The position numbers are program-made. Below, piece after piece: positions 60,001 through 64,000 of a DNA stretch of 64,000 bases (positions are counted from its first letter, which is position 1; each line of letters opens with the position of its first letter). The stretch covers positions 127,534,001 to 127,598,000 of the forward strand of contig OZ260661.1 in the NCBI GenBank assembly GCA_965285935.1, in the 5' to 3' direction. This DNA is from Ophelia neglecta. Its lineage: Eukaryota.

Positions 60001-63000
60001 CTAGTATATGCACTTGCTATTTCAAATTAAACTGACATGTAAACAAAATAAATAGTTATTTACAGTCTGCACCTGATTATATGTTAGATGAAAAACTGCG
60101 CAGAACAAGATCAGTAAGATCATAGACCTGTCTTCGCACGTAAATTGCAGAATTAAACTTATATGGCCGCACATAAATAAAGTCTAATTGACACGACTAT
60201 ACTAAACATGAAATTCGTATACCGAGGTCACGAGGACTCCACGAAATAGCAATCAGTTATACGCACACAATTGCTTAAATTATTATAGGCCTGTTCTACC
60301 CACCAACACAAAACAAATGTACTTAATCCTCTCAAATTAATTAGCTTTGGAAGTTTAAGAACACAATTCGTGTTTTCACAAAGGTGTTACTCAGTATGAA
60401 TATTAGATCTTTACGTCGTTTTCGACTTAATATTTCCGTCGAATGGTAAGTTTACTTGTTTCACTTTTTTTTTTTTTTTGTATTTTTTTTTTTTTATTAA
60501 TCTCATGGACCTACAACATATTTTTTTTCTTGTACAATTTAATTTTATATTATGCGGGAGCCCGCCCATGGACCCGAGCAGCGAGCGGCCACCAACCGAG
60601 CGAATAGCCCGACCCACAGCCACCCACCGCCCAGGCCCATGAGCCAGCACCCGCATTTCCACAATACATAGTTGTCAAAGAATGCATGGATATATCACAA
60701 TCATATTCTTAACATATTCTTAAGCAGGTTTGAATAGACTCAAAAATGCTTCCCATCGGCCGGTAAAGTCCATGTTATTGTCTTTCCGAGACACCCTCTC
60801 CTCAATGAGATATCTCTGTTTGAATATCTGAAGCAAGCAAGGCCATGACAGATTTTTGCCCAAGCACCTTGTAGCATAAACATATCTTTTAAAGCATAAC
60901 AAAAGTAGGTTTACTACCCAAAAGTTTTCAGACTGTTTGTCGTACCCAAATAGAATTGTTTTTATATTCAAATTAACCCTAATGTTACATTTTATATATA
61001 ATTGATCAACAAAAATATTCAGTAATCTAGAAACAGCTGGGCATTCCCCAAACAGATGCACAACTGTCTCTTCACGAAGGCCACAAAAAGTACAGTCTGG
61101 CGAATCTTTAATTTTCATTTGATAGAGTAGTTTATTCAATATTAGTATGTTATGGTTAATTCTAAATTGTAGCCATTGTAGTTTTGTGTCCCGCGTGATT
61201 ACATAAGTGGTTTTACAGCAACCCTTCCATTCCCCTTCGGTGACCTGTAGATGGCTTTCCCAATACCTTTGCCCTGTTGGTACTACATTGTTGTTTTCCA
61301 AAACCAGGTACATATCTTTACAGCCTCTGGCATTCTTTAGCAATGATCTTTATGATACAGGAATAAATGGACACGGCAACCGATTCTGTTCTCTCTTTAT
61401 ACCGCACATAGTAATAGCTGCCTTAATACACTGTATAATACCCTGGTATGTTACAAAATCAGAATTAATTTTCATAAATTTGAGGCATTTGGCTGCTTCA
61501 TGATACCCAATGGGACCCTCTATAGCCTGAGAGTCTGGCCCCGTTAGTCTCCTGAAATCACTGTCACTGAAATGTTCCCGCCAATCTGGTATTTGCTGGG
61601 GGTCTTTATTTGTGTATAAATCCTGATAGAACTTTTTAACTTCATTCAGGATGTCTTTTTGGCCATAGATGATATTTCCTTCGTCAGTTTTGATTTGTGG
61701 AATTATTTTGGATGTAAAATTTCGGGACTCAAGGTTTAGGAAATATTTTGTAGGCTTTTCGCCATCTTCAATAAATTTTACCTTGGCCCTGATAATGCTA
61801 CTTTTTAATTTTTCCTCTCTCAATTTTTCTAGTGCCCTATTTTTCTCCTCCAGTTGTCCCACGTTCAACATAGATAAGGATTTTTCTAATTCATTAATTT
61901 CAGTTATCAGGTTTTGTTCTTTATCGATATTCTGTTTTTTCCTCCATGATGCATAAGATATAGTTTTGCCACGTATTTCCATGAGAAGAGTCTCCAGAAA
62001 TAGTTGATCACTGATTTGTAGTTTAATATCTTGACCATCAGAAGAATTTAGGAAACCCACCGAGTATATTGGCAGAGCATATTGCTGTTTAACACTGTTA
62101 ATTACCTCATTAATCGTATCTAAGAACTTTTTTTCCTCTAGTAGGGAATTGTTGAATTTCCACAGACCCTTGCCTCTGTCGTATGGTTTAAATATAAGTT
62201 CAAGTGTTACAATAGAATGATCTGATCTATAACTAGGGATAATGTTGGCCTTTTCTATATTGTCCGAAATGTTTTTTGAGATAAGGAAAAAATCAAGGCG
62301 GGCTTGCTTAAGAGGGTTTTTCCTACGCCAAGTGTATCGTTTAATTTCAGGGTGTAGTTCCCTAAATATATCAATCAAATCTAAATCATTTACCAGGTCT
62401 AAAACTATGTCTCTGGCCTTTCTATTATTTATATGAAGATAATTTGCCATGTTCTTCTCTGGGTCAATCATAAGATTATAGTCTCCAACGATAACATATT
62501 TGCTGTTCTCAAACTCGTCTATGACAGTTTTTATATATTTGAAAAATGCGGGGTCATCCTCATTTGGGGCATATATGTTTATCAGAGTAAATTTTGTCCC
62601 TTGAACCATAATATCCAAAGCCAAAAGATTACCACATAAATCACCTTTAGTTCTGTGTATTTTATATTCAAAGTTATTGTTGAAAAGTATGGCAACTCCC
62701 CTAGAGTTTGATCTATAATTATTAAAAATGATCTCATAGCCCCATTCAGCTCTAATATAGGTTTCTTGTGCAGTAGTAAAGTGTGTGTCCTGTAGGCAAT
62801 ATATACTAAACCTTTTCGAACGTAAGAAATCAAATGTATCCTTTCTTTTACTATAATCCCCCAGACCCTGACAATTTTGTGATAATATCTTAACTAACTG
62901 TAAATTACTAGCCATTGCATCTTATCCAAGGTAATATTATGTCCATGAGATTTTTTTTCCAAGTTTGTAACTTAACATTATAAAATATTGCCAGGCAATG

Positions 63001-64000
63001 TGCTGTCCCGTCCACCAACAATGTTGTCAGATATCTGACCACAGGAAGCCGCCCTCTAACCTCAACCAAAAGGTCAGCGCCAAACCATGACAAATGCATA
63101 TGTTGGAAAACACCACCACCATCATCCCCCCACATCATATTGTAAAAATTATTGTATTATGAAACACAGTAATTTACTCTTGTCTGCACTACATCTTGGA
63201 TATCTGCAGTACATAGGGTATATTATTCACAAAGCATTTATAGTGATACTGTCACGAAATATTTTACAAAAGACATAATTATAACCTAGTTTTCATGGCC
63301 TTGCAAGCACCTCTTTCACTTCCTCACCATATTGTATCTGGCGTATTTTCCCTTGCCTGTCCTTTATTTTAACAGTTCCGTTCCATGTCCAGGCCTGGTC
63401 TACCTCAGGGTCCCTTTTAACTCTATTGAACAGTTTCTGAGTCTCTGGGCTGACGTCTTCCACAATAACCACCCCACTACCTTTCAAATTTTTCCTAGCC
63501 TTCAAAAAATCAAAAAATCAAAAATTGTTTCACGTTTTTGTTCACATCTGGCATGTCGTAAAGACGCAAGATTGAATTACGCATTTTATTGTACACATAA
63601 GACTTAATGGTCTTTCCGGTAATGTCACACAAGAGGGTTTTTTGCCTATTATCGGATAGTGCACAAAAGACTTGTAGGATAGTGCACGTAGGATGTATTA
63701 CTGCTTAAATTTTAGAAACTGATCAACGTGGTCACCCTGCCCTGGAAACAAAATACGAAAGAAATAAAAACGATTACCTGAATATTCATGGATAATGAGA
63801 GCCTGAATTGGCCTTTCCCTTCAACTGCCCCTAGTACCATTTGTGCTTACTCAATAAGTTATAATATTTTGTTAAAAATTGATGGCTGTAGCATCATTAG
63901 CACCCCTTAAGCCACCTACGCCTCAAAATTCTGATGTTAGCGTATTCCCTAATTTTCCCGAGCTATATATTTCCATTCATTACCCTCAAATTCTTGCTTG

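What the first reader, a model, noticed from the sequence alone, without database searches (positions are those of the whole stretch)
60456..63533. RT-less L1/Tx1 element: in-frame endonuclease-zinc-finger fusion with intact TSD and poly(A)
Seen: ORF2 spans 732 codons in one frame with a single stop (61350-61352). At about 61470 it jumps from the residues that normally precede the RT (CLKFMK) to the post-RT region. The poly(A) tail and 9-bp TSD are intact. Established: L1-clade ORF2 is typically about 1250-1300 aa with a central RT, so roughly 500 aa are missing. Inference: either a one-off deletion (about a 1 in 3 chance of being in frame) or a member of a non-autonomous family that keeps ORF1, endonuclease and C-terminal domain and borrows RT in trans. 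The latter would be an unusual parasite or regulator of its parent LINE.
Basis: partly seen in the sequence, partly recalled or inferred. Interest (0 to 1): 0.7.

Follow-up and report, generated by a model that had tools for sequence, protein, structure and literature searches.

The report
Broken LINE copy missing its RT
This is a young but dead copy of an L1-type jumping gene that lost its front end and the whole reverse-transcriptase part of its main gene, which is an ordinary way for such copies to be broken and shows no sign of being a new kind of parasite.

Summary
The sequence observation holds. On the minus strand, 63524 to 60465, lies an L1-clade LINE copy. It has a perfect 9-bp target-site duplication, an A13-TAC-A15 tail and an ORF2 of 731 codons in one frame with one internal TAA. 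Measured against a profile of 98 full-length relatives (about 1260 aa), the copy lacks profile positions 483-1015. That is the whole reverse transcriptase and what follows it, up to the C-terminal domain. The junction (residues MKIN, 61464-61475) aligns to both flanks, which fits a microhomology breakpoint.

Two points weaken the exciting reading. Only the last 74 codons of ORF1 are present, so the copy is 5'-truncated and has no promoter. The TAA falls 38 codons after the junction, so the zinc-knuckle domain is not translated here.

I found no second copy of the junction in the window and no RT-less endonuclease-plus-C-terminal-domain protein among 269 relatives. The closest relatives found are at most 54% identical.

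Best reading: a one-off, dead-on-arrival defective copy that is in frame by chance (1 in 3). Low interest. The 3' UTR holds a striking 47-bp G·U-rich hairpin.

The parts
60456..60464 (.). Target-site duplication, copy next to the A-tail (TTGTTTCAC)
   Evidence: Exact 9-bp direct repeat of 63525-63533
60465..60498 (-). Poly(A) tail: A13-TAC-A15 on the element strand, with AATAAA overlapping its start (60493-60498)
   Evidence: Read directly; reverse complement printed
60499..60719 (-). 3' UTR, about 220 nt
   Evidence: Lies between the terminal TAA (60720-60722) and the tail
60552..60656 (-). GC-rich 47-bp hairpin in the 3' UTR, specific to the sense RNA strand
   Evidence: -85.1 kcal/mol and z -10.5 on the element strand, against -39.7 kcal/mol on the other strand. 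27 G-C, 16 G·U and 4 A-U pairs; 71% GC against 36.5% for the element. No Rfam family at gathering score. Only sub-threshold miRNA-precursor-like matches
60720..61349 (-). ORF2 C-terminal domain: 209 codons in the ORF2 frame plus the terminal TAA. Not translated in this copy because of the upstream stop
   Evidence: Matches profile positions up to 1264 of 1266. zf-RVT at residues 45-107, which is 61029-61217. The C-C-H-C positions C610, C613, H622 and C627 are invariant in alignment A1
61350..61352 (-). Internal TAA nonsense codon
   Evidence: All 7 aligned relatives have a hydrophobic residue at this column
61353..61463 (-). First 37 codons after the junction (SDFVTYQGII...PFIPVS), the segment that leads into the C-terminal domain
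   Evidence: Aligns to profile positions from about 1020 onward and to columns 1044 onward of A1
61464..61475 (-). Deletion junction zone (ATGAAAATTAAT = MKIN); the breakpoint cannot be placed more finely
   Evidence: The two local alignments to the profile overlap on query residues 483-486. A 42-nt string spanning the junction occurs once in the window
61476..62915 (-). ORF2 N-terminal part: start codon, APE-type endonuclease (62217-62885) and the linker up to the point where RT should begin
   Evidence: Exo_endo_phos at residues 13-235. Profile positions 4-482 matched with 664 bits. The best solved-structure matches are human LINE-1 ORF2p, E 1.9e-33, query 6-469
62916..63292 (-). Spacer between ORF1 and ORF2, 377 nt
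   Evidence: Its predicted fold is not better than shuffles (z -1.42; 8 of 100 shuffles fold at least as well)
63293..63524 (-). 5'-truncated ORF1: last 74 codons plus stop (63293-63295). The element's 5' end is at 63524
   Evidence: Open frame listed. Aligns to residues 243-309 of a 311-aa ORF upstream of ORF2 in relative L002 (30% identity, E 7e-09). No Pfam match
63525..63533 (.). Target-site duplication, copy at the 5' end (TTGTTTCAC)

Best explanation
This is a single, young, dead-on-arrival copy of an L1-clade LINE. It entered by target-primed reverse transcription, which explains the A-tail and the 9-bp target-site duplication. Reverse transcription or second-strand joining stopped inside ORF1, so the copy has no 5' UTR, no promoter and only the last quarter of ORF1. 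About 1.6 kb of ORF2 (533 codons by the profile) is missing: the whole reverse transcriptase and what follows it up to the C-terminal domain. I think the loss most likely happened in one of two ways. Either the reverse transcriptase jumped within its RNA template across a short A/T-rich microhomology during this same insertion, or an ordinary microhomology-mediated genomic deletion occurred soon afterwards. The deletion is in frame by chance (1 in 3). One later substitution made a TAA 38 codons past the junction. The copy encodes no functional retrotransposition protein, cannot drive its own transcription and does nothing. At most, read-through transcription could yield a 521-aa endonuclease-plus-linker fragment. 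What is shown: the anatomy, the extent of the deletion, the truncation, the stop and the youth of the copy. What is inferred: the timing and mechanism of the deletion.
For: - **Truncation:** only 74 codons of ORF1 remain, and they align to the end of a 311-aa ORF1 of a relative.
- **Extent of the deletion:** profile positions 483-1015 of 1266 are absent, and all 123 columns conserved at 90% or more in that part are gaps. RVT_1 sits at residues 531-785 in relative P0004.
- **Junction:** residues MKIN align to both flanks, as expected if the two breakpoints shared a short A/T-rich stretch.
- **Fused frame not maintained:** a TAA lies at 61350-61352.
- **Youth:** 1 nonsense codon and no frameshift in 731 codons is what about 1% neutral divergence would give; 5.6 nonsense codons would be expected at 5%. 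The duplication is perfect and the tail nearly pure. 103 of 111 highly conserved columns outside the deletion are kept.
- **No sibling found:** there is no other copy of the element or the junction in the window. 0 of 269 relatives have the C-terminal domain without RT. In one search every listed protein with two or more matched stretches is 1192 aa or longer. A word search centred on the junction region gave 472 candidates and 1 hit, a 1261-aa protein with RT.
- **Precedent:** internal deletions with microhomology are a usual way for LINE copies to die (Hebe, PMC2861651, passages read).
Against: None of the collections I could search holds this LINE family; the best identity is 54% and 41%. 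The absence of siblings there therefore says little about the host genome. The retained endonuclease, linker and C-terminal domain are well conserved, which selection on an RT-less protein would also produce. The microhomology is inferred from protein alignments to distant relatives and was not seen in a parent sequence. An RNA already carrying the deletion, copied in trans, would leave exactly the same locus. Assembly collapse cannot be excluded without reads.
Confidence: 0.8

Rival explanations
1. This is a member of an amplified non-autonomous family. A master element carries this very deletion and makes an endonuclease-C-terminal-domain protein (with or without ORF1p), and its RNA is copied in trans by the reverse transcriptase of the full-length parent. 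The present copy is a 5'-truncated, mutated daughter.
For: The deletion is in frame and the two retained parts are well conserved: 103 of 111 conserved columns are kept. The 3' UTR hairpin and the A-tail, the parts a trans-acting reverse transcriptase would need, are intact. The copy is young, so a source could still be active. Non-autonomous LINE derivatives made by internal deletion exist: SIDEs (PMC3414825, abstract read) and HAL1 (PMC5753468, passage read).
Against: There is no second copy in 64 kb. 0 of 269 relatives have this architecture. Being in frame is expected 1 time in 3. The frame is closed by a TAA in this copy. This copy cannot show that ORF1 is kept. From recalled knowledge (Wei et al. 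2001, not read here), L1 proteins prefer the RNA that encoded them, so RT-less RNAs are copied rarely. The known deletion-derived families keep the ends or ORF1, not the endonuclease. The two literature searches listed no such family (listings only).
Confidence: 0.1
2. This is a spliced LINE RNA. A cryptic donor at the start of the RT region and an acceptor before the C-terminal domain were used, and the spliced RNA was retrotransposed, as in human SpIREs.
For: Spliced L1 RNAs are known to be retrotransposed (PMC5860796, abstract start seen in the listing). The deletion is large and clean.
Against: The 12-nt junction zone ATGAAAATTAAT holds no AG, the common last two bases of an exon before a donor (weak evidence). 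An RT-less spliced RNA would again need copying in trans. The parent sequence needed to look for GT...AG was not available.
Confidence: 0.03
3. This is an assembly artefact. The reads of a full-length copy were collapsed or mis-joined, so the deletion is not in the real chromosome.
For: Young, repeated LINE copies are a classic source of mis-assembly. I had no read data.
Against: The junction joins two non-similar parts of ORF2 about 1.6 kb apart, and assemblers normally collapse similar sequence. There are no N runs in the window. The flanks and the target-site duplication are coherent.
Confidence: 0.05

Closest known systems
Ordinary defective LINE copies: 5'-truncated and/or internally deleted. 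Examples are Hebe in Adineta vaga (PMC2861651) and human L1 copies with small truncations or internal deletions (PMC8647825)
   Same: Insertion hallmarks of target-primed reverse transcription, a truncated 5' end and an internal deletion whose junction is compatible with microhomology. The Hebe deletions carry 5-14 bp microhomologies. [quoted passage not shown]
   Different: The deletion here is large, about 1.6 kb against 12-200 bp in Hebe. It removes exactly the polymerase part and leaves the frame intact. The microhomology is inferred, not seen.
HAL1 (half-L1), a non-autonomous L1 derivative of mammals
   Same: An L1 derivative without reverse transcriptase that depends on the parent in trans (PMC5753468, passage).
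   Different: HAL1 encodes only ORF1p and is a proven multi-copy family. This copy has lost most of ORF1, keeps the endonuclease and C-terminal domain of ORF2, and is known from one locus.
SIDEs (short internally deleted elements) of R2 and R1 in Drosophila
   Same: Non-autonomous elements made by internal deletion of a full-length LINE, mobilised by the parent's machinery through the 3' UTR (PMC3414825, abstract).
   Different: SIDEs keep the 5' ribozyme and the 3' end and have no coding capacity. This copy lacks its 5' end and keeps about 2.2 kb of coding sequence.
SpIREs (spliced integrated retrotransposed elements) of human L1
   Same: A LINE copy with a clean internal gap that was present before or at insertion (PMC5860796, listing).
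   Different: From recall, not read here, SpIRE gaps lie in the 5' UTR and ORF1 and have GT...AG ends in the parent. Here the gap is inside ORF2 and its ends could not be examined.
Truncated human ORF2 products with endonuclease only, from retrotransposition-incompetent L1 loci (PMC4176336)
   Same: As it stands the locus would encode endonuclease plus linker and then stop. In human cells this kind of fragment is reported as a potential source of DNA damage (abstract start in the listing).
   Different: Those loci are full-length with a promoter. This copy has none, and nothing here shows expression.

Membership tests
L1-clade LINE (L1/Tx1 group of non-LTR retrotransposons) | N-terminal APE-type endonuclease in ORF2 | tested here: met
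   Exo_endo_phos at residues 13-235, E 4.6e-07, above the curated cut-off. The best solved-structure matches are LINE-1 ORF2p and L1 endonuclease. The QDTH, GDxN and SDH motif columns are invariant in A1; that these are the catalytic motifs is recalled.
L1-clade LINE (L1/Tx1 group of non-LTR retrotransposons) | Central reverse transcriptase domain | tested here: not met
   No RVT_1 in either ORF2 piece and profile positions 483-1015 are absent. The RT of relatives matches only the unrelated CR1-like element at 53.9-55.1 kb in the window. 214 of 269 relatives cover more than half of this part of the profile. So this is a defective copy of the family, not an exception to it.
L1-clade LINE (L1/Tx1 group of non-LTR retrotransposons) | C-terminal cysteine-histidine knuckle domain after the RT | tested here: met
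   zf-RVT, E 1.5e-06, 29.2 bits against a cut-off of 27.5. The profile is matched to position 1264 of 1266.
L1-clade LINE (L1/Tx1 group of non-LTR retrotransposons) | ORF1 upstream of ORF2 | tested here: inconclusive
   Only 74 C-terminal codons are present. They align to the end of the ORF upstream of ORF2 in relative L002 (E 7e-09), but no Pfam family matches either one convincingly.
L1-clade LINE (L1/Tx1 group of non-LTR retrotransposons) | Poly(A) tail and variable-length target-site duplication | tested here: met
   A13-TAC-A15 tail and a 9-bp perfect duplication.
Tx1 subgroup specifically | Placement in the Tx1 branch of an RT tree, and insertion into a specific repeated target | not testable with these tools
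   The RT is deleted, no reference set of LINE clades is at hand, and only one insertion site is known. The target here is TTGTTTCAC/G, in unique-looking sequence.
Non-autonomous RT-less LINE family (HAL1-like or SIDE-like) | Several copies with the same internal junction at different loci with different target-site duplications | not testable with these tools
   One copy in the 64-kb window. 0 matches in genome contigs, which holds only bacteria and archaea. No protein with this architecture among 269 relatives. The host genome is not available.
Non-autonomous RT-less LINE family (HAL1-like or SIDE-like) | An intact 5' end (promoter), so that the deleted element can be transcribed again | tested here: not met
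   The copy starts inside ORF1. This says nothing about a possible master copy elsewhere.
SpIRE-like spliced LINE copy | GT...AG at the ends of the missing segment in the parent element | not testable with these tools
   No parent sequence was found. The closest relatives are at most 54% identical at the protein level.

The most novel reading that the evidence does not exclude
The deletion defines a living non-autonomous L1-clade family. Its master copies encode an endonuclease fused to the RNA/DNA-binding C-terminal domain and ride on the parent's reverse transcriptase through the shared 3' hairpin and A-tail. Such a protein could nick targets and bind template while lacking the polymerase, acting as a parasite or a dominant-negative regulator of the parent LINE.
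Probability: 0.07. Interest if true: 0.6.

Novelty: new member of a known kind. Interest (0 to 1): 0.13.

Why it matters
As it stands it matters little. It is one more defective LINE copy, useful mainly as an annotation: an L1-clade lineage with no close relative in the searched collections, young enough to suggest that the parent family was recently active in this genome. It would matter only if the same junction turned out to be amplified. That would make it a rare case of a LINE parasite that keeps the endonuclease and C-terminal domain of ORF2 but borrows the polymerase. It would offer a natural test of how strictly LINE proteins act on their own RNA. The G·U-rich 3' hairpin may be worth more attention than the deletion itself.

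Tried and rejected
- **Self-search:** blastn and tblastn of the element and its three protein pieces against the window gave self hits only.
- **Junction string:** 1 match in the window and 0 in genome contigs. The latter is uninformative, because that collection holds only bacterial and archaeal genomes.
- **The search for related loci:** 35 stretches matched a pattern and 3 were confirmed (L001-L003, contigs of MAG records). All three cover only the endonuclease-linker part. I could therefore compare neither breakpoint at DNA level, nor test whether the 3' hairpin is conserved.
- **ESM Atlas:** it does not take the read-through protein. Given the uninterrupted 521-aa ORF with RT-bearing clusters left out, it returned only endonuclease-only clusters. 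None of the rows shown carries zf-RVT. This is a lead only.
- **Rfam:** nothing at gathering score in the whole window. Two sub-threshold miRNA-precursor-like matches on the hairpin (27.4 bits against a gathering score of 90, and 21.7 against 70) reflect hairpin shape only.
- **Pfam on the ORF1 tail:** nothing. Pfam on the relative's ORF1 gave only sub-threshold coiled-coil-like matches.
- **Inter-ORF spacer fold:** not better than shuffles.
- **Host identification:** the last protein search, on the neighbouring CR1-like ORF, reached at most 54% identity. The few named hits are echinoderms (Strongylocentrotus, Lytechinus, Amphiura), a whelk (Nucella) and a bacterial MAG record. One L1-like hit is filed under a clam-symbiont MAG. 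This suggests a marine invertebrate and nothing more.
- **Not run:** no structure or complex prediction, because none would bear on the question.
- **Unchecked:** Supplementary files were not consulted; those of the SpIRE and Hebe papers may list junction types relevant to the comparison.
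Full report
**1. What is there**

The feature lies on the minus strand. Read 5' to 3' on that strand, it consists of:
- a target-site duplication (GTGAAACAA on the element strand; TTGTTTCAC at 63525-63533 on the + strand);
- the last 74 codons of an ORF1 (63296-63517) with its stop (63293-63295);
- a 377-nt spacer;
- an ORF2 that starts at ATG 62915 and runs for 731 codons in one frame to TAA 60720-60722, with one internal TAA at 61350-61352;
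- a 220-nt 3' UTR;
- a tail A13-TAC-A15 whose start forms AATAAA;
- the second copy of the duplication (60456-60464).

The window holds no N. The 9-mer occurs 6 times in the window on both strands against 0.91 expected, so its mere recurrence is not rare. What counts is its placement. One copy abuts the tail. The other lies 7 nt beyond the first codon of the open ORF1 frame and about 20 nt beyond the point where similarity to a relative's ORF1 begins.

**2. The deletion is real and can be measured**

Pfam finds the APE-type endonuclease before the internal stop and zf-RVT after it, with no reverse transcriptase.

A search of 5.8 billion proteins gave 1272 hits at E of 1e-5 or better among 8000 scored candidates. 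The 120 listed are mostly about 1260 aa. 116 of them carry RVT_1. The 4 that do not are endonuclease-only fragments of 473-553 aa.

I built a profile from the 98 listed relatives of at least 1240 aa:
- Query residues 9-486 match profile positions 4-482 (664 bits).
- Query residues 483-731 match positions 1016-1264 (196 bits).
- So 533 of 1266 positions are missing. All 123 columns in that part that are conserved at 90% or more are gaps in the query.

In relative P0004 the Pfam RT domain lies at residues 531-785. The gap therefore takes out the polymerase and about 230 further residues behind it. From recall, in human ORF2p that stretch is the thumb and most of the "wrist".

The solved structures that match best are human LINE-1 ORF2p (E 1.9e-33, query 6-469 on ORF2p 7-453). 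This places the 5' breakpoint just before the RT.

The RT parts of five relatives were searched against the window. Four of them matched, all on an unrelated CR1-like element at 53.9-55.1 kb. The missing piece is therefore not displaced nearby.

**3. The junction**

The two local alignments overlap on four residues, MKIN (ATGAAAATTAAT, 61464-61475). In the relatives the 5' flank reads ...MKNNKSPG and the 3' flank reads ...N(I/V)xxNFLQY. These are A/T-rich Lys/Asn/Ile codons on both sides.

So the breakpoint can be placed only within 12 nt. That is what a short microhomology would give, but this is inferred from relatives 42-44% identical overall in alignment A1 (at most 54% over the best local alignment), not seen in a parent sequence. 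The zone holds no AG. This is weak evidence against a canonical exon-exon junction.

**4.

First, ORF1 is not kept. The 74 codons align to residues 243-309 of a 311-aa ORF that lies upstream of ORF2 in relative L002 (30% identity, E 7e-09). About three quarters of ORF1, the 5' UTR and any internal promoter are therefore absent. The copy is 5'-truncated and cannot itself be a source element.

Second, the fusion frame is closed. The TAA is the 38th codon after MKIN, so the zinc-knuckle domain would not be translated. As the DNA stands the product would be 521 aa: endonuclease, linker and 37 residues beyond the junction.

**5. Age and state of the retained parts**

5.1% of all single-base changes in the 730 sense codons would make a stop. 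One stop and no frameshift is what about 1% neutral divergence would give. At 5% divergence 5.6 stops would be expected.

The perfect duplication and the nearly pure tail agree with youth.

Outside the deletion the copy keeps the majority residue at 103 of 111 columns conserved at 90% or more. The 98 relatives differ at a median of 3 such columns (range 0-13), and 10 of 98 differ at 8 or more. The relatives define the consensus, so this yardstick favours them.

The source was therefore a recently functional element. This fits a fresh one-off deletion and an RT-less family under selection equally well.

**6. Is it a family?**

This is the question that decides the interest, and it cannot be answered with the data at hand. 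What I could check:
- There is no other copy of the element or of the junction in the 64-kb window.
- 0 of 269 fetched relatives cover the C-terminal domain without covering the RT part. The classes were 178 complete, 18 with endonuclease, linker and RT but no C-terminal domain, 18 with a partial RT, and 55 with no RT coverage and no C-terminal domain.
- An exhaustive HMMER scan of 1.84 billion cluster representatives found 23,354 proteins at E of 1e-3 or better. Among the best 150, every protein with two or more matched stretches is 1192 aa or longer, and every protein shorter than 1000 aa has a single stretch in the endonuclease-linker part.
- A word search confined to residues 440-731 gave 472 candidates and one hit, a 1261-aa protein with RT.
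- The junction string has 0 matches in genome contigs, but that collection is prokaryotic.

None of these collections contains this LINE family; the best identity is 54% and 41%. The negatives therefore show only that RT-less endonuclease-plus-C-terminal-domain ORF2s are not a common architecture among relatives. They do not show that the junction is unique in the host genome.

**7. Most likely mechanism**

Shown: insertion by target-primed reverse transcription, 5' truncation, a 1.6-kb in-frame internal deletion and a later nonsense mutation.

Inferred: the deletion is a one-off. I put about equal weight on two routes.
- **(a) A template jump during this insertion.** The reverse transcriptase jumps within its template, from just upstream of the C-terminal-domain coding region to just upstream of the RT coding region. 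The same lapse in processivity would also explain the truncation in ORF1. The RNA would have been full-length, so its own protein could act on it.
- **(b) A microhomology-mediated genomic deletion soon after insertion.** This is documented for Hebe, where nine copies carry internal deletions, most with 5-14 bp microhomologies (PMC2861651, passages read).

An RT-less RNA as template needs copying in trans. From recall (Wei et al. 2001, not read here) this is rare for L1, and that lowers the prior for the family reading.

Being in frame has a chance expectation of 1 in 3 and carries almost no weight.

**8. Comparison with known things**

The closest match is the everyday class of defective LINE copies. 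[quoted passage not shown]

The known non-autonomous derivatives differ in what they keep:
- HAL1 keeps only ORF1 (PMC5753468).
- SIDEs keep only the two ends (PMC3414825, abstract).
- SpIREs lose a spliced segment (PMC5860796, listing only).

Endonuclease-only ORF2 fragments from incompetent human L1 loci are discussed as a source of DNA breaks (PMC4176336, listing only). This copy would give such a fragment only if something else transcribed it.

Two literature searches (listings read) showed no description of a LINE family that keeps the endonuclease and C-terminal domain but lacks RT. That is not proof that none is in print.

**9. Verdict**

This is a new member of a known kind, an internally deleted, 5'-truncated copy of an L1-clade lineage that has no close relative in the searched collections. 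Interest is low.

The RT-less family reading survives at about 7-10% and can be settled in minutes by anyone holding the host genome.

**10. Seen in passing**

The 3' UTR carries a 47-bp hairpin (60552-60656):
- It is 71% GC, inside an element that is 36.5% GC.
- It has 27 G-C, 16 G·U and 4 A-U pairs.
- It folds at -85.1 kcal/mol (z -10.5) on the sense RNA strand, but only -39.7 kcal/mol on the other strand.

All 16 wobble pairs work on the sense strand only, so the structure exists at the RNA level and is not a DNA palindrome. It may be the handle by which the family's reverse transcriptase recognises its RNA. Alternatively, the G·U pairs may be footprints of A-to-I editing of a once A-U-rich hairpin that were fixed by reverse transcription. 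Both ideas are inference.

An apparently intact CR1-like LINE ORF of 1032 aa lies at 53598-56696 on the minus strand.

Noticed in passing
window 60552-60656, minus strand (3' UTR of the element): A 47-bp, 71% GC hairpin with 16 G·U, 27 G-C and 4 A-U pairs. It folds at -85.1 kcal/mol on the sense RNA strand against -39.7 on the opposite strand, so it is an RNA-level structure and not a DNA palindrome. It may be the recognition handle for the reverse transcriptase, or a hairpin whose A-U pairs were turned into G·U by RNA editing before reverse transcription. No Rfam family reaches gathering score.
   Followed up: partly
window 53598-56696, minus strand: An uninterrupted 1032-codon stop-to-stop frame with endonuclease (Exo_endo_phos, E 4.3e-14) and reverse transcriptase (RVT_1, E 6.5e-34), of CR1/jockey-like type. 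It may be an intact, possibly active LINE 4 kb from the finding. The closest proteins found are 54% identical or less. The few named ones come from sea urchins, a brittle star, a whelk and a bacterial MAG record.
   Followed up: partly
window 42993-43391, minus strand: A 132-codon open frame weakly similar (24% identity over 88 residues, E 3e-06) to the C-terminal region of the CR1-like ORF at 53.6-56.7 kb. It is probably the 3' fragment of another LINE of that group.
   Followed up: partly
window 60456-60464 / 63525-63542 (empty target site): The inferred nick site on the primer strand is TTGTTTCAC/GTTTTTG. The primer end is not a T run, unlike the TTTT/AA preference recalled for mammalian L1, although a T-rich stretch follows the nick. 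The 9-mer itself occurs 6 times in the window against 0.91 expected.
   Followed up: no
L002 1-4196 (MAG contig with a relative of the element): In this relative about 2.4 kb separates the end of the 311-aa ORF1-like frame (938) from the ORF2 start (about 3340), against 377 nt in the window's element. Either something is inserted there or the ORF1 belongs to another element.
   Followed up: no
window 38009-38102 and 25999-26142: Two short tandem duplications: a 47-bp unit in 2.0 copies at 100% match, and a 74-bp unit in 1.9 copies at 80% match. Significance unknown.
   Followed up: no
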